NCBI GenBank assembly: GCA_022614965.1
Contig: JAKEHO010000043.1
Span: 10,950 to 74,949 of the forward strand
Direction: 5' to 3'
Length of the DNA stretch: 64,000 bases
From: Gammaproteobacteria bacterium
GTDB taxonomy: Bacteria; Pseudomonadota; Gammaproteobacteria; JAKEHO01
Below the pieces are notes generated by a model. It ran no database searches. It worked only from the letters and a program-made list of their open reading frames with translations, and was not told the origin of the DNA. The position numbers were made by a program, and so were the translations under genes. Positions 26,073 to 33,893 of the stretch are shown here, piece after piece. Each line of letters begins with the position of its first letter. Position 1 is the stretch's first letter.

Positions 26073-26148
26073 TCCCCGGTAGCTCAGCTGGTAGAGCGGG
26101 TGGCTGTTAACCACTAGGTCGGCGGTTCGAGTCCGTCCCGGGGAGCCA
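26073..26148 (+). tRNA. tRNA-Asn(GTT)
   Basis: TCCCCGGTAGCTCAGCTGGTAGAGCG-GGTGG-CTGTTAA-CCACT-AGGTCGGCGGTTCGAGTCCGTC-CCGGGGA-GCCA. Confidence 0.97.
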
Positions 26149-26323
26149 TACTCCCTTGTCTTGGGCCAAGGCGAACATCGCCGATACAGTAACCACCGAC
26201 CACCCTCGTCACTCAGCACTCTTTCCCATCGCCAGCCGTGCGAGTCCGGCATGAGACATCTCGTGTCAGGGAATGATGAAGGTATTCTACGGTGAGTTGT
26301 TATAATTAAGCAGTGGGAGAGCG

Positions 26324-26383
26324 ACCTAACCATTGAACTGACGGGCGCGCGTCAGCGCGTCCCGGTCGAGTGATTTGTTAGAG
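26324..26383 (-). repeat. attC site 3 (60 bp)
   Basis: CTCTAAC-AAATCACTCGACCGGGAC-GCGCTGACGCGC-GCCCGTCAGTTCAATG-GTTAGGT. R''/R' boxes and an imperfect palindrome with bulged bases. Confidence 0.85.
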
Positions 26384-26390
26384 CGCATTC

Positions 26391-26666
26391 TCACTTTGCC
26401 TTTACATCTTCTAGCTTCACACCGCGGCCAGCCCGCAAACTGGCGCGCGCAGCGTCAACCCTCTCCAAAAAACGTGGGTCGTTCTCAAGACGATAGTCGA
26501 ACCAGTCGTCCTCGGACTCAAACCCAATCAATACTCCCGCCGGCTTGCCGTGGCGGGTAATGAGGATCTCCTGCTTCTCTGCCTCGCGGAGAAATCTAGA
26601 CAGGTCGTCCTTTACTTCCGATAACGAAACCTTCTTTACTCGGGACTTCCGAACTGCGCCAGCCAT
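26391..26666 (-). CDS. Phd/YefM family antitoxin
   Basis: VSLSEVKDDLSRFLREAEKQEILITRHGKPAGVLI is a Phd-type N-terminus. Confidence 0.88.
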   Translation of the reverse strand: MAGAVRKSRVKKVSLSEVKDDLSRFLREAEKQEILITRHGKPAGVLIGFESEDDWFDYRLENDPRFLERVDAARASLRAGRGVKLEDVKAK

Positions 26667-26929
26667 GATTCTGCCTCCGATTGTGCTACTATCGCCAACA
26701 CCTCTACGGTCGAGCCAGAAACGTCGTAGAAGATACGAAGTTCTTCAACTCGAAGCCGAAACTGCGGCTTCGAAACACCGCGCAATCGTTTGATTCTGCT
26801 ACGGCTTACTTTCGTCGGCTCATACCTCAGATGCGTTTCAAGTGCCTCGCGGACTACGGACCTGAGATTTGCGTTAAGCCTCCCGAGGTCCTCAACTGCC
26901 TCCGCAGCAAGAATGATCCCAAAACGCAT
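26636..26929 (-). CDS. RelE/ParE family toxin
   Basis: IILAAEAVEDLGRL, IKRLRGVSKPQFRLRVEELRIFYDV. Overlaps the antitoxin start. Confidence 0.85.
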   Translation of the reverse strand: MRFGIILAAEAVEDLGRLNANLRSVVREALETHLRYEPTKVSRSRIKRLRGVSKPQFRLRVEELRIFYDVSGSTVEVLAIVAQSEAESWLAQFGSPE

Positions 26930-26966
26930 TCTGGCTATATTATAGCCAGATTTATTGAGATGAGAA
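26930..26966 (-). promoter_or_regulatory. TA cassette promoter with palindromic operator over the -10 box
   Basis: Minus strand TTCTCA-16 nt-TATAAT. TATAAT sits inside a perfect 10 bp inverted repeat, TCTGGCTATA-A-TATAGCCAGA (26930-26950), which directly precedes the toxin ATG. Confidence 0.7.
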
Positions 26967-26974
26967 AGTACGCG

Positions 26975-27040
26975 CTCTAACGACCTGCCGATAAGCTGCG
27001 GGCACCGCAGGCGACCGTCAGCTTCATCGGCGTGTTAGGC
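26975..27040 (-). repeat. attC site 2 (66 bp)
   Basis: GCCTAAC-ACGCCGATGAAGCTGAC-GGTCGCCTGCGGTGCCC-GCAGCTTATCGGCAGGTC-GTTAGAG. The cld stop TAA is in R''; L''/L' pair with extrahelical bases. Confidence 0.92.
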
Positions 27041-27595
27041 CGCCACATCGCGTACGAGGCGGATATCCACCTCACGGACTACGTACTTCCATTCCTCCGA
27101 CACACGCAAACTGACTACGAGTTCCTCGAAGGCCACCGAGTGTTCTGGTGCGTACTCGAACCAGGTGAGGAAGTCGAAGGGCTCACCGAGATCGCGGCTG
27201 TGGTGCAGACGACGCGCGACGGCGGGCAGGTATCGCAATCCAGTCTTGATGTGTTCCGACCGCGTCTCAAAGATCTCCCGCCTCTCGTCTTGAGTGAGCT
27301 CCCACCACGCGTCCGACTTTCGGATCGGGATAAGCGCCGCATAGACAGCCTCCGGCCGACCAGGCGCGGGCTGTTTCGCCACGAGTAGCTGCCGCTCGGC
27401 GCGCGTTACGTACCGTTCGTTGCTGGTAACGCCTCGGAGCAGCCAGAGCGCGCCCTGCGGAGCCGAGGCGACAAGCGAGGTGACCACTTCGGCACGCGGA
27501 GCTTCAGGCAGAGGCTCACCGATCACCGCGTCCGTTCGCATGATCCGCCATTCTCCGGTGAGTCCACCGACAAACGTAAACATTCGTCCGGTCAA
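27035..27595 (-). CDS. cld: Chlorite dismutase, short (clade 2/dimeric-like)
   Basis: 186 aa. WLLRGVTSNERY, ALIPIRKSDAWWELTQDERREIF, HIKTGLRYLPAVARRL, DLGEPFDFLTWFEY, EEWKYVVREVDIRL match, from memory, the short Nitrobacter-type Cld. Candidate proximal His115 and distal Arg128 are present. Confidence 0.88.
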   Translation of the reverse strand: MTGRMFTFVGGLTGEWRIMRTDAVIGEPLPEAPRAEVVTSLVASAPQGALWLLRGVTSNERYVTRAERQLLVAKQPAPGRPEAVYAALIPIRKSDAWWELTQDERREIFETRSEHIKTGLRYLPAVARRLHHSRDLGEPFDFLTWFEYAPEHSVAFEELVVSLRVSEEWKYVVREVDIRLVRDVAA

Positions 27596-27656
27596 TTCCT
27601 GCCTCCATCAAAACGGAGTCTGCAACCTGCTCTACGCAAGTCCGCGATTGGTGGCG

Positions 27657-27728
27657 GCCTAACGTCTTGCATAATCGGCGGCCTAAAGCATAACTTTAAG
27701 CGGTCCGTGTTGATGCGATTGTTAGCAC
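27657..27728 (-). repeat. attC site 1 (72 bp)
   Basis: TGCTAAC-AAATC-GCATCAACACGGAC-CGCTTAAAGTTATGCTTTAGGC-CGCCGATTATGC-AAGAC-GTTAGGC. Confidence 0.88.
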
Positions 27729-28556
27729 GCATTCCAGTGCCTCAGTTCGTTCTAATGGTACGAAAATGTGGTCTTTAAGTGTCGGATCAGTGAATCCGCC
27801 TATGTTGTCAATTCGTGTGATGCCCGCATAGGTGTCGTTGCTTGTCTTGCATATTCGATAGGGCATATATTTCAAGCTCCTCAAGGCGCTCAGCAACTTT
27901 TCATTGCGAATAGCTCGATGTTCGTCCTCGCTTCTCGTGGGCAATATTTCCATAATGATAATGGGTTGATCCCGATCAATTAGCGGTGACATTGTTTCAA
28001 TAACCTCGAGTTCTGCGCCCTCAACATCTATTTTAATGATGGCTGCCTTGTCTTTCGGTAAGCAACCGCAAATTGCTTCATAACGAAACACAGGGACAAA
28101 TTTTGTCATCCTCCCCTGCGGTATGGATCTTAAGTCTTTAATTATCGTTGATCCCCCATCAGTATCGCTTGAACCGGAAAGTTCAACTATCCCATCCATA
28201 TTGGATAAACCTACCGGAACTATCATTGCTTGATTCCAGAGATTCGAACTGATTAGTCTCTGAAGGTAAAACAGGCAGGATGGGTTTGGTTCAAAACCAA
28301 CGTACTGTCGGCTTGCATCTAGGGTGCTTACTTTGGCAAGCGTTTGCCCTAGATTCGCTCCAACGTCATAAAATACGCCATCCGCAAATTGGAACAACTC
28401 TCCCAATAGTTCGGACATCCACTTTTCCCCGCTTACGCCAACCTTTACTCCGTTAATGATGGGGACATATATCTTTTTGTTATTCAATGTCCTTGTGGTG
28501 CTGAGGTTGACTATGGTCGAAAGCCTCTTGCCAAGGTGTTTTAGTTGTTTCTGCAT
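27696..28556 (-). CDS. FkbM family methyltransferase (cassette gene)
   Basis: YDVGANLG, VGFEPNP, IKIDVEGAELEVI. Visibly AT-rich; the reading frame runs into attC1. Confidence 0.88.
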   Translation of the reverse strand: MQKQLKHLGKRLSTIVNLSTTRTLNNKKIYVPIINGVKVGVSGEKWMSELLGELFQFADGVFYDVGANLGQTLAKVSTLDASRQYVGFEPNPSCLFYLQRLISSNLWNQAMIVPVGLSNMDGIVELSGSSDTDGGSTIIKDLRSIPQGRMTKFVPVFRYEAICGCLPKDKAAIIKIDVEGAELEVIETMSPLIDRDQPIIIMEILPTRSEDEHRAIRNEKLLSALRSLKYMPYRICKTSNDTYAGITRIDNIGGFTDPTLKDHIFVPLERTEALECVLTIASTRTA

Positions 28557-28595
28557 ATTCTATGGTCGTCCTCGTAAAGTGCTGCGTAATATGCG

Positions 28596-28614
28596 TGCTA
28601 ACTTTAAATTCGAT
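28596..28614 (-). other. Candidate attI simple site
   Basis: Minus strand ATCGAAT-TTAAA-GTTAGCA: degenerate L box, 5 bp A/T spacer and R box at the start of the first cassette. No R'' partner upstream. Confidence 0.45.
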
Positions 28615-28659
28615 TTCAATTCTGCCGTATAAGCCGGCAGACTACGCCGCATAATCCAA

Positions 28660-28782
28660 GGGGTCAATTTTCAAGGTCTTGATTTATGCCACGCCTCAAA
28701 GAGGATCACGGCGCTGAAATAAATCTGGTGATTTCTAATCCGAAAGCGAACCAATCTGTGATAATTGTCAAGACTTGACCCC
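28660..28782. mobile_element. 123 bp MITE-like element with GGGGTCAA/TTGACCCC terminal inverted repeats
   Basis: Ends GGGGTCAATTTTCAAGGTCTTG and CAAGACTTGACCCC share a motif with termini at 30832-30851 and 32738-32753. Contains a 30-codon ORF MPRLKEDH... (28686-28778). Confidence 0.55.
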
Positions 28783-28808
28783 CTGCGCCCATTGGATGCT
28801 AAGTGTGG

Positions 28809-29228
28809 TTAAAAACGATCATTCCCAACTATGCCTAAATTGTTGATTTTTGTCTTTCTCAAAATCTTCAACAGCAGATTTCTGCAAAATCTAAGAAATG
28901 GATAAATAATTTTCGAAAGCATCCTGGAGCGGAATATCCAGTAATTGATGCGATTGAAAACTCCGGAACGACTGCCATTAAGGGCCAGTGCATGAATGGC
29001 GTCTGCGCCGTAATAAAGCGCACCACCCATCTTCAGTACCATTCCCTGGTCTATATCGAGGCCTGCTGCTGTGATTTCATTCATGATTTCACTTGATTCC
29101 CTGGCATCAACTAGCTTGAGTTTCCCGACGGAACCCCTAATACGAACCATCCGGCAATAATTATCACAGGCAGGACACTGCTTGTCGTATACAAGAAGTA
29201 TGTCATTATCTTTTATCGCCCTGTGCAC
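28809..29228 (-). CDS. DCC1-like thiol-disulfide oxidoreductase (DUF393), cassette-like
   Basis: LVYDKQCPAC (DxxCxxC), LDIDQGMVL, LYYGADAI. Preceded by GTTAGAA (29242-29236); its stop TAA is inside TTTTAAC. Confidence 0.85.
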   Translation of the reverse strand: MHRAIKDNDILLVYDKQCPACDNYCRMVRIRGSVGKLKLVDARESSEIMNEITAAGLDIDQGMVLKMGGALYYGADAIHALALNGSRSGVFNRINYWIFRSRMLSKIIYPFLRFCRNLLLKILRKTKINNLGIVGNDRF

Positions 29229-29434
29229 AATTGCCTTCTAACGGTTGAATCAGTGGCGGTGTTCCGCCCTGGCGCACCGGCGTAAGATCATAGGCCGCGC
29301 TGGCATGATTCAAAGCATGGGGCCACAATGCTTGAAGTCCGGGATCCACATTTCATAGTGAGATTACGTTACTATTATGCAAACCGTGACTCAGAAGATA
29401 AAAAATATCAAAAACTCCGACTCCCTGTTTCCGG

Positions 29435-30733
29435 TTGTCCGTGTCTGACGCCACCCTTGCCCGCAGCCTCGGTCTCGGCGCTCTGGTGTTCTACGGCATC
29501 GGAGATATCCTCGGGGCCGGCATATACGCCCTGGTCGGCAAGGTGGCGGGGGCCGCGGGCGATGGCGCCTGGCTTGCTTTCCTCTTTGCCGGATCCCTCG
29601 CGCTGGTTACGGGCCTGAGTTATGCGGAGCTCTCTGCAAGAATTCCCCACAGTGCTGGCGCCTGTGCGTATTGTGCAAACGCCTTCCCCCATCCTTTTTT
29701 TCCCTTTTTGACAGGCGCACTAGTTCTCGTTAGTGGAGTGACATCAACGGCAACGGTGGCGCTCGCCTTTCAGGGTTATCTCGAAGTGTTCATGGCGCTG
29801 CCTGTAATGTTCACGGCCATTTTTCTCATCCTCGCCATCAACACGCTCAACTTTGCGGGCATCCGCCAGTCCGCAGCAACCAACAACCTGTTCACCATCA
29901 TCGAGATGAGCGGCTTGGTGCTGTTTGTGGTGATGTGCATGCGCTATGTGGCATCGACGCATACGCCGTCAGACCTGATTGAAAAACTGGCGCCCACCGC
30001 GGATGTCGCCGCAGTGGTTGCGGGCGTGACGATCGCGTTTTATGCATTCATCGGATTTGAGGACTTGGTCAACCTCGCGGAAGAGGCCAGAGATCCGGTG
30101 CGCGATCTGCCGCGGGCAATCCTCAGCGCAATCGCGATCACCAGTCTCCTCTATCTGCTGGTGATCTTCACCGTCCAGTGGACCATGACGCCCGCGGAGG
30201 CATCCGCCTCACAACGGCCGCTGCTCGACGCGCTCGAACGCGCGGGATTGCCGATCCCGGCATGGGGGTTTGCCTTGATCGCCGTGATCGCAATCGCTAA
30301 CACCGGCCTTGCCAACAGCATCATGGCGTCGCGCCTGCTATATGGCATGGCGACACAGGGACTGCTTCCGAAGCGGCTGGCGCAGGTGCACGCGCGCCGC
30401 CTTACCCCCTGGCTCAGCATTCTGGTGACGGCGCTGCTATCAATACTGCTGGTCATCACTGGCGGTGTCACCGTGTTGGCGCAGACGACGGGCTTTCTGC
30501 TCGTGACCGTGTTCCTCATCGTGCATATCAGCCTCATCCGCATACGCCGCCGCGATGGAGAACAGGTCGGCCGATTCAACGCACCGGCTTTCAACCCGTA
30601 TCTTGGAGTTCTGCTCTGTGTCCCGTTGCTGACACAATTTCCCCGCGAGGTCTACGAGCGGATCACACTAATCGTTGCTGGCGTGGGTATTTTGTTTGCC
30701 GTGATGCAGTGGAGTCAGAGACGATCTTTGTAA
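29435..30733 (+). CDS. APC family amino acid permease
   Basis: LARSLGL, GIGDILGAGIYALVG, SYAELSARIPHSAG, FYAFIGFEDLVNLAEEARDP, SRLLYGMA. About 12 hydrophobic segments. Confidence 0.92.
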   Translation: MSVSDATLARSLGLGALVFYGIGDILGAGIYALVGKVAGAAGDGAWLAFLFAGSLALVTGLSYAELSARIPHSAGACAYCANAFPHPFFPFLTGALVLVSGVTSTATVALAFQGYLEVFMALPVMFTAIFLILAINTLNFAGIRQSAATNNLFTIIEMSGLVLFVVMCMRYVASTHTPSDLIEKLAPTADVAAVVAGVTIAFYAFIGFEDLVNLAEEARDPVRDLPRAILSAIAITSLLYLLVIFTVQWTMTPAEASASQRPLLDALERAGLPIPAWGFALIAVIAIANTGLANSIMASRLLYGMATQGLLPKRLAQVHARRLTPWLSILVTALLSILLVITGGVTVLAQTTGFLLVTVFLIVHISLIRIRRRDGEQVGRFNAPAFNPYLGVLLCVPLLTQFPREVYERITLIVAGVGILFAVMQWSQRRSL

Positions 30734-30831
30734 AGCGTCTTTTCAATACACTTGCGCAGGTTTCAAGTGCTCTGACCACTTGAATTTCTGATGAATTACA
30801 ATCGGTCGAATATCAGTAAACGATAAATGTA

Positions 30832-30851
30832 TTATTGCAAGGCCTGACCCC
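30832..30851. repeat. GGGGTCAGGCCTTG element terminus
   Basis: Plus strand TTGCAAGGCCTGACCCC, same motif family as 28762-28782 and 32738-32753. Confidence 0.5.
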
Positions 30852-31042
30852 GATCCTCAGACCTCGCACTTGTTAGGCATAATTAGTCGAGCCTCACTCA
30901 TTTTATTCGTGCAGCTCCGCCCTTCATCGTTGGCAACAGCTCAATCGACGAAGATATCCTGCAGATTGTCCCTATCGCGTAAACCACGTGATGTTAATTG
31001 AGCATGGGGCTCGCTTCAACGGATTACCATGCTCAAAGTAGT

Positions 31043-32467
31043 TTACTGCGCAGCCAGCTTCCGCACGATTTCGTACATCACCCGGGTGCCGAACTTCACG
31101 TTCTCCACCGAGAGCCGCTCATCGTTGCCGTGGAGGAGGGAGGCTTCCTTGTCCGTCAGCTTGAAGGGCATGAAGCCGTAGCAGGGGATCCCCTTCTCCC
31201 GGAAGTAATGGCAGTCGGTGAACCCAACCAAGAGCGGTGTTGTTACTTTGACCCCAGGATCGTGGCTGTTCGCAACCTCTTGGAGAATCTTAAAGAACTC
31301 GGAATTGGTGGGGGACGCGCTCGGGGGAAAGGAGAGCACGGGTTCGATCTTGATCGACTCGTCCCCGATAACCTTCTGCAGCTCATCGAGGAAGCGCTGT
31401 GGATCCTCGCTTGGAAGGAGCCTCACATCAAGCTGGGCGGTGGCCTGAGGCGGGATAACGTTGACCTTGTTCGAGCCCTCCAGCATTGTGATCGAGATGG
31501 TGTTCCGAACTGCAGCGTTATCCCAGCGGTCTTCGCTGAACTCCAAGGCGAAGGCACGGTTCTGGAGGGAGGCCCTCAGATCCTTCAATCGTTGCCGCCG
31601 CTCGGGGGAGGGCTCGAGGTCGGCGGTGTCCGCGTAGAACTTCTGGACCACGGGCTCTACCTTCAGTGGCGTTTGGTAACTGACGATCCGGTGCAGCGCC
31701 TCGATCAGCTTGACCACCGCGGAGTCGGGCCGGGGCATCGAGCCATGGCCAGGGGTGCCCGTGGCCGTCAGCTTCAACCAGAGCGGGGCCTTCTGAAATA
31801 TTTCCACATCGTAGTGCAGGACCTTACCATCGTCGCCCACACTGATGAAGCTGAACTCATTCAAAACGGTGCCAGCGTCCTTCAGGAGGTCAAAGTGCTC
31901 CTGGACCATGAACCGCGCGCCCATGGCACCTCCCGCCTCCTCGTCGGCCACCCCCAGGAAAATGACATCTGCCTTCAGGGGGATCCCCTGGCGCTTCAGG
32001 GCCAGCATAGCCATCAGCTCCACGATCCCCATGCCCTTCATGTCCAGGGCACCGCGCCCCCACACGTAGCCATCCTTAACCACACCGGCGAAGGGGTCCA
32101 CCGACCAATACCGTCTGTCTGCCGGGACGACGTCCATGTGATTCATGAGGACGACGGCCTTCTTCGATCCGTCCCCTTTAAGGCGTGCATAGATATTTCC
32201 TCGTCCCGGGGTCGATTCCAGAATGCGCGCCTCGATCCCTTCTCGATCGAAGATGGCCTTGAAGAACTCAGCCGCCTTGATCTCATTTCCCGGCGGATTG
32301 GTGGTATCGATCCGAAGGTATTCACTGAGGAGAGAGACGGCTTCCTGCTCCAGAGCCTCCACGCCGGCGGCACTTTTCTCGCCTGGAACCTCCGCGGCCT
32401 TCGCCACAGCGGCCAAGGCAAACACCATGAGCCCGACTATGGCCAGCACAAGCTTGCGATTTTTCAC
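31043..32467 (-). CDS. Secreted M20/M25/M40 family metallo-hydrolase
   Basis: N-terminal signal peptide, LRIDTTNPPGNE, MNHMDVVPA, GRGALDMKG, VADEEAGG, GTPGHGS, GFTDCH, LHGNDER. GTG start after GGAGGGAG. Confidence 0.92.
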   Translation of the reverse strand: MKNRKLVLAIVGLMVFALAAVAKAAEVPGEKSAAGVEALEQEAVSLLSEYLRIDTTNPPGNEIKAAEFFKAIFDREGIEARILESTPGRGNIYARLKGDGSKKAVVLMNHMDVVPADRRYWSVDPFAGVVKDGYVWGRGALDMKGMGIVELMAMLALKRQGIPLKADVIFLGVADEEAGGAMGARFMVQEHFDLLKDAGTVLNEFSFISVGDDGKVLHYDVEIFQKAPLWLKLTATGTPGHGSMPRPDSAVVKLIEALHRIVSYQTPLKVEPVVQKFYADTADLEPSPERRQRLKDLRASLQNRAFALEFSEDRWDNAAVRNTISITMLEGSNKVNVIPPQATAQLDVRLLPSEDPQRFLDELQKVIGDESIKIEPVLSFPPSASPTNSEFFKILQEVANSHDPGVKVTTPLLVGFTDCHYFREKGIPCYGFMPFKLTDKEASLLHGNDERLSVENVKFGTRVMYEIVRKLAAQ

Positions 32468-32565
32468 AGCCTCTCCCTCCTCACAATGGATTCATTGACG
32501 TTTGCTCGAAATTGAGAGGCGAAAACGTGTCAGGAACCATTTTGCAGCTACCGTCCGAGGGGGAT

Positions 32566-32753
32566 TGAAGACCCTTTTCCGCGAAACTGCATTCAAGGAC
32601 AAGGCCGCGCGCGATAAAGCGATGCGCGAGGCCCACCGCGCACACGGTTACACGCTCTCAGAGATCGGTCGAGCACTCGACCTACACTACGCCACGATCA
32701 GCAAAGTGGTTAATCAGCGCGGGGCATAAACTTAGTTTTCAAGACCTGACTCT
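32566..32753 (+). pseudogene. C-terminal HTH remnant of a Y1/REP-associated tyrosine transposase, followed by its terminus
   Basis: LKTLF...RDKAMREAHRAHGYTLSEIGRALDLHYATISKVV resembles the C-terminal HTH of long RAYT-type transposases. TTCAAGACCTGACTCT follows 8 nt after the stop. No HUH domain upstream. Confidence 0.6.
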
Positions 32754-33015
32754 ATGTCTGCTAAGGGGACGTTCCACTCCCAACATGTTTTTGTTGCAAC
32801 ATAGGTACAGATCATGGTGGTTTGCAGATCCCGAACAGTTATTTTTATGCTTATTCGATCATTAAATGCACTATATAACGAGGCAGACAGTTCGACACGG
32901 TGCTCTTTCGATGGCGCCCAACAATTCACAGATTTGAATCACCCACTTCAAGGCCCGTTTCTTGGTTTCCGCCCCTGTTGAATGCAGCATGATTTGAATG
33001 GCAACCCCGGCATCA

Positions 33016-33893
33016 TCAGGCAAGGGTCAGTGAACTCAGATAGTTCGCAAACGCATCCTTCAACTCCGGATGTTTAAGGGCATATTCAACCGTAGCCTGC
33101 AGGTACCCCAACTTCGAACCGCAGTCATAGCGTTTCCCTTCAAATTCAAAGGCTAATACCTGCTCCGTTTGCAATAGCTTCGCTATCGCATCTGTCAACT
33201 GGATCTCCCCGCCTGCCCCCTTTTCTGTGGTCTCCAGAAGTTGAAATATCGCAGGCGTCAAAATATATCGCCCCACAGCGCAAGGGTCGACGGCGCCTCT
33301 TCAGGCTTCGGTTTCTCGACGATACGCACGACCCGGCTCAAGCGATCCGCGATCCTCTCAGTCTCCACGATGCCGTATTTACTTGTGTCTTCCAGCGGAA
33401 CCGGCTCAACAGCCAGCACGCTACATTGATGCGCCTCGAACATCTCAATCATTTGTTTTATGCATCCCACGTTGCCGTTCTCAATCAGATCGTCAGCGAG
33501 CAATACCGCAAAGGGCTCACGACCGACAACAGGCCTCGCCCGCAATACGGCGTGGCCAAGACCTAAGGGCTCTGCCTGTCGTATATAGATACAGGTGACC
33601 TCGGGAGGTAATATGTTGCGTACGATCTGCAGCAGCTCACATTTACTGCCTTTCTCCAGTTCGGCTTCCAACTCGTAGGCCTTGTCGAAATGATCAGATA
33701 TCGAACGTTTCGTTCGTCCGGTAATAAAGATCAGGTCCTTGATTCCAGCTGAGACTGCTTCTTCCGCGGCATACTGGACGAGCGGCTTGTCCACGATAGG
33801 CATCATCTCTTTAGGACTCGCCTTGGTCGCGGGCAAGAACCGAACACCAAGCCCTGCAACGGGCAACACGGCCTTTCTAATTCTCGTATTCAT
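33016..33893 (-). pseudogene. galU: UTP--glucose-1-phosphate uridylyltransferase with a single-base frameshift
   Basis: [31 protein letters not shown]...[13 protein letters not shown] then a shift at about 33277 into [11 protein letters not shown]...GEIQLTDAI...RYDCGSKLGY. Confidence 0.9.

What the first reader, a model, noticed from the sequence alone, without database searches (positions are those of the whole stretch)
26324..28602. Hidden integron cassette array with no integrase, next to tRNA-Asn
Seen: three 60-72 bp imperfect palindromes with R''/R' boxes and bulged bases. The first six bases of each cassette exactly complement its own R'' (TTAGCA/TGCTAAC, TTAGGC/GCCTAAC, TTAGAG/CTCTAAC), as expected when circular cassettes integrate at G|TT. 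The three attC sequences differ, suggesting separate origins. No tyrosine recombinase is present in the window. Known: this fits the CALIN definition, and TA cassettes stabilise arrays. The ORF track does not show this structure.
Basis: partly seen in the sequence, partly recalled or inferred. Interest (0 to 1): 0.7.

Follow-up and report, generated by a model that had tools for sequence, protein, structure and literature searches.

The report
Decayed integron with three gene cassettes
This is a real three-cassette integron array on the minus strand that has lost its integrase but keeps the integrase gene's first 23 codons and an attI-like insertion site; this is a known kind of element, with the unusual feature that the genome carries about eight copies of that insertion site.

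Summary
The three palindromes are genuine attC sites. A covariance model built only from attC sites next to bona fide integron integrases in other genomes hits all three: 51.9, 45.5 and 35.1 bits, E 2e-9 to 1e-5.

The cassettes, read on the minus strand, are:
- FkbM methyltransferase, 28601-27663
- clade-2 chlorite dismutase, 27662-26981
- ParE/Phd toxin-antitoxin, 26980-26330

Each cassette starts with six bases that complement its own R''. No tyrosine recombinase lies on the 91-kb contig. No integron integrase is found in the 87%-complete MAG. The CALIN label therefore fits.

After it, on the opposite strand, come the first 23 codons of an intI gene (28686-28754), broken at a GGGGTCA-type repeat. 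The locus is therefore a decayed integron, not an orphan cluster.

The same attI-like sequence occurs eight times in this genome. Each copy is followed by a different cassette. It was found in no other genome searched.

This is a known kind of element with an unusual multi-copy attI feature. Interest is moderate.

The parts
26073..26148 (+). tRNA-Asn(GTT). It flanks the distal (last-cassette) end of the array, 175 nt away.
   Evidence: ARAGORN; Rfam tRNA 67.4 bits.
26324..26383 (-). attC of the toxin-antitoxin cassette. R'' is CTCTAAC (26383-26377) and R' is GTTAGGT (26330-26324), with crossover G26330|T26329. The layout is canonical: ACT[C]GAC[C]GGG[A]C ... G CCC GTC AGT.
   Evidence: Model R2 gives 51.9 bits, E 2e-9, on the minus strand, against 13.6 bits on the plus strand. 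Model R1 gives 47.7 bits.
26330..26980 (-). Cassette 3 (651 nt). It encodes a ParE/RelE-family toxin (26929-26636) and a Phd/YefM antitoxin (26666-26391). It has its own promoter-like site (26966-26939) overlapping a perfect 10+10 palindrome (26930-26950).
   Evidence: Pfam PF05016 and PF02604, NCBIfam TIGR01552. Promoter scan 10 of 12. Palindrome I9.
26975..27040 (-). attC of the chlorite-dismutase cassette. R'' is GCCTAAC (27040-27034) and R' is GTTAGAG (26981-26975). The ORF's stop codon TAA lies inside R''.
   Evidence: R2 gives 35.1 bits, E 1.2e-5, minus strand. Its core is shared by many other contigs in the source metagenomes: depth 1098-1360 against about 80.
26981..27662 (-). Cassette 2 (682 nt, GC 0.62). 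It encodes a 186-aa clade-2 (dimeric type) chlorite dismutase, ORF 27595-27035.
   Evidence: PF06778. PDB 9gtj at E 2e-73 and 3qpi at E 2e-62. A cave metagenome holds just 27005-27664 at depth above 200 with other flanks.
27657..27727 (-). attC of the methyltransferase cassette. R'' is TGCTAAC (27727-27721) and R' is GTTAGGC (27663-27657).
   Evidence: R2 gives 45.5 bits, E 5.5e-8, minus strand. R1 gives 32.8 bits.
27663..28601 (-). Cassette 1 (939 nt, GC 0.45). It encodes an FkbM-family methyltransferase, ORF 28556-27696, which ends inside its own attC.
   Evidence: PF05050 and TIGR01444. It starts with TTAGCA, the complement of its own R''.
28602..28685 (-). attI-like site. The conserved core is ...GGCAGAATTGAAATCGAATTTAAAG|TT (28602-28652), with the crossover at G28602. 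It is followed by the intergenic stretch up to the intI start.
   Evidence: The core occurs 8 times in the genome, each time followed by a different cassette. Of 9 junctions (the 8 copies plus one variant in C72), 8 are complemented by the R'' of the next attC. The core stays unpaired in all folds. Depth is 628 against 80, about 8 copies. It resembles the A/T-rich ends of attI sites beside real IntI genes.
28686..28754 (+). intI stub: the first 23 codons (MPRLKEDHGAEINLVISNPKANQ), divergent from the cassettes as in a normal integron. The frame runs on to a stop at 28776-28778 through unrelated sequence.
   Evidence: Window 28603-28754 is 83.6% identical over 152 nt to C68:1457-1306. The C68 copy continues into PRLLDNVSSRLRFKHYSLRTE. 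That copy is the only significant hit in the genome to an IntI N-terminal HMM, E 1.5e-6.
28755..28785 (-). Break point. On the minus strand it reads GGGGTCAAGTCTTGACAATTATCACAGA, a GGGGTCA-type repeat end that truncates intI.
   Evidence: The same junction is found in copy C72:39204. Related ends lie at window 30838-30851 and at C117 (twice). A groundwater contig joins 26205 directly to 28762.
28809..29228 (-). DCC1-like thiol-disulfide oxidoreductase ORF next to the stub. Its status as a cassette is unproven.
   Evidence: PF04134. TTTTAAC overlaps its stop and GTTAGAA precedes its start, but no attC is found by R2 and no canonical arms are seen.

Best explanation
The locus is the remnant of a chromosomal integron that reads on the minus strand. 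From high to low coordinates it holds: a 23-codon stub of the integrase gene intI (plus strand, divergent); an attI-like insertion site whose crossover is G28602|T28601; and three cassettes, each ending in a canonical attC (FkbM methyltransferase, clade-2 chlorite dismutase, ParE/Phd toxin-antitoxin). The array ends 175 nt from tRNA-Asn.

Shown:
- The attC sites are real and lie on the minus strand.
- The junctions carry the G|TT signature.
- The integrase gene is cut off after codon 23 at a GGGGTCA-type repeat.
- No functional integrase lies on the contig.

Inferred:
- The cassettes were inserted one by one at the attI-like site by an integron integrase, newest next to attI.
- The integrase was then lost by a rearrangement at the repeat.
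- The cassettes are now frozen unless an integrase is supplied in trans. The attC sites keep every feature the enzyme reads: the R boxes, the unpaired spacer, and the extrahelical bases on the bottom strand.
- The toxin-antitoxin cassette has its own promoter and a palindrome at the operator position, and probably protects the block from deletion.

The same attI module, with intI stubs of different lengths, heads other small arrays in this genome (eight exact copies plus one variant).
For: attC identity and strand:
- Models R1 and R2 were trained only on attC sites adjacent to IntI genes above the TIGR02249 cut-off in other genomes.
- In those arrays R1 hits only the strand set by intI.
- R2 hits the three window sites on the minus strand at E 2e-9, 5.5e-8 and 1.2e-5.
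- 17 of 31 related genomes give no R2 hit at all.
- All ORFs are on the minus strand, and the Cld stop codon lies in R''.

attI:
- The conserved core occurs 8 times in the genome and only on contigs that carry attC sites.
- 8 of 9 junction heptamers are exactly complemented by the next attC's R''.
- The core never pairs in folds.
- It is similar to attI ends beside real IntI genes.

intI stub:
- An IntI N-terminal HMM has a single significant hit among 83,326 six-frame ORFs, E 1.5e-6. That hit abuts the attI copy on C68 on the opposite strand.
- tblastn gives 71% identity over 21 aa.
- The only NCBIfam hit is 'integron integrase'.
- The window's copy shares the first 23 codons.

No integrase.

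Mobility:
- Same-genus genome G001 has tRNA-Asn and galU but none of this.
- A cave metagenome carries the Cld cassette alone.
- A groundwater contig lacks exactly 26206-28761.
Against: - The window's own stub stops before the part of IntI that the HMM recognises. Its identity rests on DNA homology to the C68 copy.
- The attI reading is by position, junction logic and loose resemblance. No cognate integrase is available to test it, and no genome was found in which this sequence sits beside an intact intI.
- Eight attI copies, some inside arrays, is not what a classical integron looks like.
- The MAG is 87% complete. Several other arrays lie at contig ends, so an integrase may exist in unassembled DNA.
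- The E-values of the home-made models are rough.
- The groundwater joint rests on one 266-nt contig at depth 4.7.
Confidence: 0.8

Rival explanations
1. The locus is an orphan cluster made by integrase-mediated insertion of cassettes at a secondary genomic site (attG, 5'-GWT-3') next to tRNA-Asn. On this reading it never had an integrase of its own.
For: Loot et al. show efficient insertion at GWT sites and propose this origin for small CALINs (10.1101/2022.09.11.507474). The array is small. It sits in a variable spot between tRNA-Asn and galU that also holds a different insert in G001.
Against: The sequence upstream of the first cassette is not local chromosome. It is a conserved module found 8 times. 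On its other side that module carries the 5' end of an intI gene.
Confidence: 0.08
2. The locus is a working part of a split integron. An intact integrase encoded elsewhere (in the missing 13% of the genome or on a plasmid) still services this array and the other arrays through their attI and attC sites.
For: The attI core is 100% identical over 27 nt in 7 of 8 copies, while the flanks have diverged to 84-87%. That suggests constraint or recent turnover. All attC sites keep canonical features. Arrays on C72 and C68 run off contig ends on their integrase side. 35% of genomes in the class carry IntI.
Against: No IntI is found in 2.3 Mb. In the source metagenome no equal-depth contig continues the stub into a full intI. 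Same-genus G001, 97% complete, also has none.
Confidence: 0.25
3. The conserved 50-mer is not attI. It would be the 3' half of a lineage-specific attC family, or an ORF-less cassette, that spread through the arrays.
For: Some copies lie inside arrays. Copy C72:44778 is preceded by a canonical R''-L'' arm.
Against: No partner arm is seen and there is no pairing in any of 8 folds on either strand. R2 does not see these sites even with filters off. Copies on C117 and C64 have no R'' upstream within 260 nt. The intI start codon sits about 85 nt away on the other strand in four copies.
Confidence: 0.07
4. The palindromes are chance matches, REP-like elements or terminators, and not recombination sites.
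For: DNA folding z-scores are only -0.1 to -2.6.
Against: The pattern count is far above chance. The covariance-model hits are strand-specific. The junction complement rule holds at all three cassettes. The same rule holds at eight more junctions elsewhere in the genome.
Confidence: 0.01

Closest known systems
[quoted passage not shown] 2016, IntegronFinder)
   Same: There are three attC sites on one strand less than 4 kb apart. No integrase is detectable within 4 kb or on the contig. The cassettes are of mostly non-resistance function. Half of all CALINs are in genomes without IntI.
   Different: This one keeps an attI-like site and a 23-codon intI stub. [quoted passage not shown] An element like this would be counted there as 'not near a pseudogene'.
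Sedentary chromosomal integrons with decayed integrase (for example the Xanthomonas ilvD-linked integrons; PMC12444791 turned up in the search but was not read in detail)
   Same: It is chromosomal, carries cassettes of unknown adaptive role, and lost its integrase in place.
   Different: The decay goes much further: only 23 codons are left. The array is short and its attC sites are heterogeneous. The attI module is present in about eight copies instead of one.
Vibrio-type superintegron toxin-antitoxin cassettes
   Same: A type II toxin-antitoxin pair (ParE/RelE family with Phd/YefM) is packaged as one cassette. It has its own promoter and a palindrome at the operator position, in the array's orientation. 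C72 carries further TA-like cassettes, named BrnT/BrnA-like and HigB/HigA-like from their first residues only and not scanned.
   Different: Stabilisation is inferred, not tested. The array is three cassettes long, not about 180.
attG / SALIN insertions (Loot et al., 10.1101/2022.09.11.507474)
   Same: Cassettes sit outside a complete integron, and the junction is at G|TT.
   Different: The receiving site here is a conserved, repeated, attI-like module with an intI stub. It is not an arbitrary GWT in local DNA.

Membership tests
Integron attC site | R'' (RYYYAAC) and R' (GTTRRRY) boxes at the ends of an imperfect palindrome of about 57-141 nt. | tested here: met
   CTCTAAC...GTTAGGT (60 nt), GCCTAAC...GTTAGAG (66 nt) and TGCTAAC...GTTAGGC (71 nt) on the minus strand.
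Integron attC site | Extrahelical bases and an unpaired spacer on the R''-L'' arm, which set the strand that recombines. | tested here: met
   The 5' arm of the minus strand is longer and is bulged at the same positions as in 36 attC sites beside real IntI genes. Examples: ACT[C]GAC[C]GGG[A]C, with a 5-nt spacer against 6-8 nt. Plus-strand scores are 13.6 bits or less.
Integron attC site | A significant hit to an attC covariance model. | tested here: met
   A surrogate model (R2, 51 attC sites from arrays next to IntI) gives E 2e-9, 5.5e-8 and 1.2e-5. IntegronFinder's own model was not available. Rfam holds no matching family.
Integron gene cassette | The first six bases after G|TT complement the cassette's own R''. 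| tested here: met
   All three cassettes meet this. 8 of 9 further junctions in the genome also meet it.
CALIN | At least two attC sites less than 4 kb apart on one strand. | tested here: met
   Three sites lie within 1.4 kb, all on the minus strand.
CALIN | No integron integrase nearby. | tested here: met
   There is no TIGR02249 or PF00589 match on the 91-kb contig. Only a 23-codon stub remains.
Complete integron | An intact intI with the IntI-specific insertion. | tested here: not met
   The best TIGR02249 score in the genome is 86 bits against a cut-off of 265. Those hits are Xer-like genes on other contigs.
Complete integron | An attI site between intI and the first cassette. | tested here: inconclusive
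   Position, junction logic, lack of folding and resemblance to attI ends of related integrons all fit. Recombination activity cannot be tested here.
Complete integron | A Pc promoter reading into the cassettes. | tested here: inconclusive
   The consensus scan finds no promoter-like site on the minus strand between 28602 and 28800. A TTGACA lies at 28775-28770 without a good -10.
Type II toxin-antitoxin (ParE/RelE with Phd/YefM) | Two small overlapping genes with toxin and antitoxin domains, and an autoregulated promoter. | tested here: met
   PF05016 (23.7 bits, cut-off 23) and PF02604 (43.2 bits). The genes overlap by 31 nt. The promoter-like site overlaps a perfect palindrome. Toxicity was not tested.

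The most novel reading that the evidence does not exclude
The attI site, with a short intI stub, may behave as a multi-copy 'landing pad'. On this reading, modules made of a GGGGTCA-type repeat end, the intI stub and attI have been copied to at least eight places in one 2.3-Mb genome. Each copy has captured its own cassettes through an integrase acting in trans. The genome would then run a dispersed integron without a resident integrase next to any array. A corollary is that many CALINs scored as 'not near a pseudogene' would be decayed integrons whose stubs are too short for current detectors.
Probability: 0.25. Interest if true: 0.65.

Novelty: new member of a known kind. Interest (0 to 1): 0.4.

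Why it matters
The origin of integrase-less cassette clusters is an open point. Two origins are proposed: decay of full integrons, or insertion at secondary sites. Here the answer can be read from the sequence, because the array still has its insertion site and the first 23 codons of the integrase. That favours decay for this locus.

Stubs this short escape the published pseudogene screen, which uses C-terminal profiles with more than 50% coverage. The share of clusters that descend from full integrons may therefore be underestimated.

The eight near-identical attI copies in one small genome, each heading a different cassette, are unusual. If confirmed on a closed genome, they would be a natural system for asking whether attI sites can be multiplied and serviced in trans.

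The cassettes themselves (a dimeric chlorite dismutase, an FkbM methyltransferase and a ParE/Phd pair) are ordinary environmental cargo.

Tried and rejected
- Rfam has no family that matches these sites.
- MAFFT alone could not align attC sites usefully. I parsed the canonical layout by script and bootstrapped a covariance model from eight equal-length sites instead.
- I looked for a fourth and fifth attC around the DCC1-like gene: TTTTAAC at 28808-28814 and TTCTAAC at 29237-29243 with an 8-bp inverted repeat. I also checked GTTAGGC at 30872-30878 after the M20 peptidase. None has canonical arms or any R2 score, so they are left as unproven.
- I first read 28657-28785 as a MITE inserted in an attC (inverted repeat I11). 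The left 'arm' turned out to be native attI-intI intergenic sequence shared with other copies.
- IS1111-attC elements and group IIC-attC introns were considered for the conserved 50-mer. Both insert near the 5' (R'') end of attC in antisense (PMC3001079), whereas this sequence abuts R'.
- The exact 23-mer of the attI core was absent from 185k species genomes. It was absent from 30 relatives at up to 3 mismatches. The one JGI metagenome hit was a chance match inside a low-GC gene. No genome was therefore found with this attI beside an intact intI.
- The closest homologues of the chlorite dismutase (84-88% identity) sit in ordinary contexts without attC.
- The second assembly that carries the array (GCA_022616165.1) is 100% identical and is not independent.
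- The 75-aa helix-turn-helix ORF at 32502-32729 could not be tied to a transposase family.
Full report
**1. The observation**

The region holds tRNA-Asn at 26073-26148. After it come five minus-strand ORFs:
- Phd/YefM antitoxin, 26391-26666
- ParE/RelE-family toxin, 26636-26929
- a 186-aa chlorite-dismutase-family protein, 27035-27595
- an FkbM methyltransferase, 27696-28556
- a DCC1-like protein, 28809-29228

The pattern CTAAC-N35-65-GTTAG occurs four times in the window against 0.64 expected. No shuffle out of 100 reaches four. Three of the four matches sit in the gaps between these ORFs, at 26326-26381, 26977-38 and 27659-27725. Single-strand folding energies alone are unimpressive, with z-scores of -0.1 to -2.6. 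Folding is therefore not what carries the argument.

**2. An independent attC test**

Rfam has no matching family, so I built a surrogate for IntegronFinder's model.
- Integron integrases above the TIGR02249 cut-off occur in 53 of 151 genomes of the same class.
- I fetched the DNA on the cassette side of many of them.
- I parsed 36 attC sites whose strand is fixed by the divergent intI.
- I aligned eight of equal layout and built model R1.
- R1 found 51 sites in those arrays, every one on the strand predicted by intI.
- Those 51 gave model R2.

With filters off, R2 finds exactly three strong sites in the 64-kb window:
- 26324-26383: 51.9 bits, E 2e-9
- 27657-27727: 45.5 bits, E 5.5e-8
- 26975-27040: 35.1 bits, E 1.2e-5

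All three are on the minus strand. The best plus-strand score is 13.6 bits. Seventeen of 31 related genomes give no R2 hit at E 0.001, so the model is specific.

The alignments show the canonical layout. There is a 5-nt spacer after R'', then three triplets interrupted by single bulged bases on the R''-L'' arm, and a 6-8-nt spacer before R'. For example, the first site reads CTCTAAC AAATC ACT[C]GAC[C]GGG[A]C GCGC-TGAC-GCGC G CCC GTC AGT TCAATG GTTAGGT.

The sites are real, but the top strand is the minus strand, the same strand as the ORFs.

The cassettes, read on the minus strand, are:
- methyltransferase, 28601-27663 (939 nt)
- chlorite dismutase, 27662-26981 (682 nt)
- toxin-antitoxin, 26980-26330 (651 nt)

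The box-complement rule is symmetric, so it holds in either orientation.

**3. What lies at the head of the array**

On the minus strand the first cassette begins at T28601, after G28602. Upstream there should be an attC or an attI. The 206 nt from 28603 to 28808 turned out to be repeated in the genome. A core, GGCAGAATTGAAATCGAATTTAAAG followed by TT, occurs eight times. All eight are on contigs that carry attC sites, and each is followed by a different sequence.

- At 8 of 9 such junctions (the eight plus a variant in C72), the heptamer at the crossover is exactly complemented by the R'' of the next attC downstream, with canonical arms. These are true integrase junctions.
- The core never pairs with anything in minimum-energy folds of either strand in any copy.
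- R2 does not see it.
- It therefore behaves like a double-stranded partner, as attI does.
- In eleven integrons of the class, the attI ends beside real IntI genes are likewise A/T-rich runs ending in AG|TT. Examples are ...CTACTTTAAG|TTAGAA and ...CCGAATTCAAG|TTAGCC.

**4. The integrase stub**

- tblastn with real IntI proteins against the genome gave one small hit directly abutting the copy on contig C68, on the opposite strand: PRLLDNVSSRLRFKHYSLRTE, 71% identical to residues 4-24 of an IntI.
- I built an HMM from the N-terminal 66 residues of nine bona fide IntI proteins and searched all 83,326 six-frame ORFs of the genome. It gives that ORF as its only significant hit (E 1.5e-6). The next best is E 0.31.
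- NCBIfam's only match to the peptide is 'integron integrase', and it is weak (E 0.13).
- The C68 ORF reads MARLKENHDGEINRVVSNPKANQ-PRLLDNV...HYSLRTE and then breaks off.
- The window's plus strand at 28686-28754 reads MPRLKEDHGAEINLVISNPKANQ. It then runs into TCTGTGATAATTGTCAAGACTTGACCCC.
- At the DNA level the two copies are 83.6% identical over 152 nt.
- Copies on C72 break after other codons.

The arrangement is stub, about 35 nt of spacer, attI core, then cassettes, with the stub divergent from the cassettes. That is the architecture of an integron platform.

The break in the window is at a GGGGTCA-type repeat end. That end recurs at 30838-30851 and twice on C117. It is shared with the C72:39204 copy.

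**5. No working integrase**

- The genome's best TIGR02249 scores are 72-86 bits against a cut-off of 265. They fall on three Xer-like genes on other contigs.
- PF00589 finds only those three and one fragment.
- Nothing lies on the 91-kb contig that holds the window.
- The MAG is 87% complete.
- Arrays on C72 and C68 run off contig ends on their integrase side.
- An integrase elsewhere therefore cannot be excluded.
- In the source metagenome, no equal-depth contig continues the C68 stub into a longer intI.

**6. Context and mobility**

- The organism is an uncultured gammaproteobacterium from a sediment metagenome. UvrB is at most 75% identical to named relatives.
- The same-genus genome G001 has the aminotransferase, tRNA-Asn and galU but none of the 6.8 kb between them. 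Instead it carries a different 1.8-kb insert. It has no attC there.
- Cassette GC contents are 0.45, 0.62 and 0.53, against 0.54 for the window.
- Logan contigs of the source samples show depth of about 80 across the locus. Depth is about 628 over the attI core, which is eight copies at the same abundance. Depth is 1100-1360 over the core of the second attC, with many different flanks.
- A cave metagenome from another study holds only 27005-27664, the chlorite-dismutase cassette, at depth above 200. What appears to be a different attC follows the crossover.
- One low-depth groundwater contig joins 26205 directly to 28762. It lacks exactly the stub, the attI and the three cassettes. It is a single 266-nt contig and is only suggestive.
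- The closest homologues of the chlorite dismutase on long contigs (84-88% identity) have no attC.
- The second public assembly with this array is 100% identical and is not independent.

**7. Function**

- The chlorite-dismutase protein matches solved dimeric (clade-2) enzymes end to end: 9gtj at E 2e-73 and 3qpi at E 2e-62. The ...VARRLHH... stretch is identical in the closest solved structure, 9gtj.
- The toxin-antitoxin cassette has a promoter-like site (TTCTCA-16-TATAAT). It overlaps a perfect palindrome at 26930-26950, just upstream of the toxin gene.
- No promoter-like site reading into the cassettes was found near attI.
- How the methyltransferase and chlorite dismutase are expressed is unknown.

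**8. Comparison with what is known**

By IntegronFinder's rules this is a CALIN (PMC4889954). That paper found intI pseudogenes near only 5% of CALINs. However, it screened with C-terminal profiles at more than 50% coverage, and it looked for attI only as exact class 1-3 matches. An element like this one would be scored there as having no pseudogene.

Loot et al. propose that small CALINs arise by insertion at GWT sites. Here the receiving sequence is a conserved module with an intI stub, which favours decay of an integron for this locus.

The unusual point is the copy number. About eight attI sites with stubs of different lengths sit in a 2.3-Mb genome. The core is 100% identical over 27 nt in seven copies, while the flanks have drifted to 84-87%. 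I could not decide between two readings: copying of a truncated module, or independent decay of several integrons.

**9. Verdict**

The element is a new member of a known kind. Interest is moderate, and it rests mainly on the multi-copy attI modules.

Noticed in passing
Own genome contigs C72:42280-46557, C68:1981-5016, C69:22764-23864, C90:76460-77435, C64:8573-8656, C117:56337-56399: Twelve further attC sites by model R2 lie on six other contigs, so this small genome holds at least seven integrase-less arrays. From their first residues alone (not scanned against any family library), two C72 cassettes look like BrnT/BrnA-type and HigB/HigA-type toxin-antitoxin pairs. Arrays on C72, C68 and C117 run off contig ends and may join.
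   Followed up: partly
window 28755-28785, 30838-30851, 32735-32751; genome C117:53265-53453, C21:6176: A small family of repeat ends has the form GGGGTCA(A/G)G(N)CTTG(A/C)(C)AAT. One end truncates intI in the window and in C72:39204. On C117 two ends form an inverted pair about 190 nt apart (MITE-like). The C68 stub also breaks at a similar GGGGGCGGAGCTTGATATT. No transposase could be tied to them.
   Followed up: partly
window 32502-32729 (+): A 75-aa ORF has only a weak helix-turn-helix match (HTH_38, E 3e-4) and sits next to a degenerate GGGGTCA-type end. It looks like the C-terminal remnant of a transposase-like gene, but this rests on memory. It is the only copy in the genome.
   Followed up: partly
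window 26149-32972 versus L020 (G001:C18): The whole 6.8 kb between tRNA-Asn and galU is absent from the same-genus genome. That stretch holds the array, the DCC1-like gene, an amino-acid permease and a secreted M20 peptidase. G001 instead carries a 1.8-kb insert (a Rieske oxygenase and a DUF4070 fragment) flanked by a 67-bp duplication of the galU 3' end. This intergenic spot is an insertion hot spot in both genomes.
   Followed up: partly
window 33016-33893 (-): galU (UTP-glucose-1-phosphate uridylyltransferase) is split into two overlapping ORFs, 33258-33893 and 33016-33276. The single G001 ORF (L020:3409-4287) matches both in two tblastn segments. This is either a frameshift or an assembly error.
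   Followed up: no
window 28809-29243 and 29237-29325: The DCC1-like ORF is bracketed by GTTAGAA (9 nt before its start) and TTTTAAC (overlapping its stop) on the minus strand. Upstream lies an 8-bp perfect inverted repeat, TTGAATCA...TGATTCAA. This looks cassette-like, but there is no canonical attC and no model hit.
   Followed up: yes
L060-L063 (contigs of other assemblies): The closest homologues of the cassette chlorite dismutase (84-88% identity) are ordinary chromosomal genes without attC. This family could therefore show how a gene becomes a cassette.
   Followed up: partly
G013:C1:2259132-2294674 (a complete related genome): Nine of this genome's eleven R2 attC hits lie in a 35-kb stretch. 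The genome has no integrase above the TIGR02249 cut-off. It is another large integrase-less array in the class.
   Followed up: no
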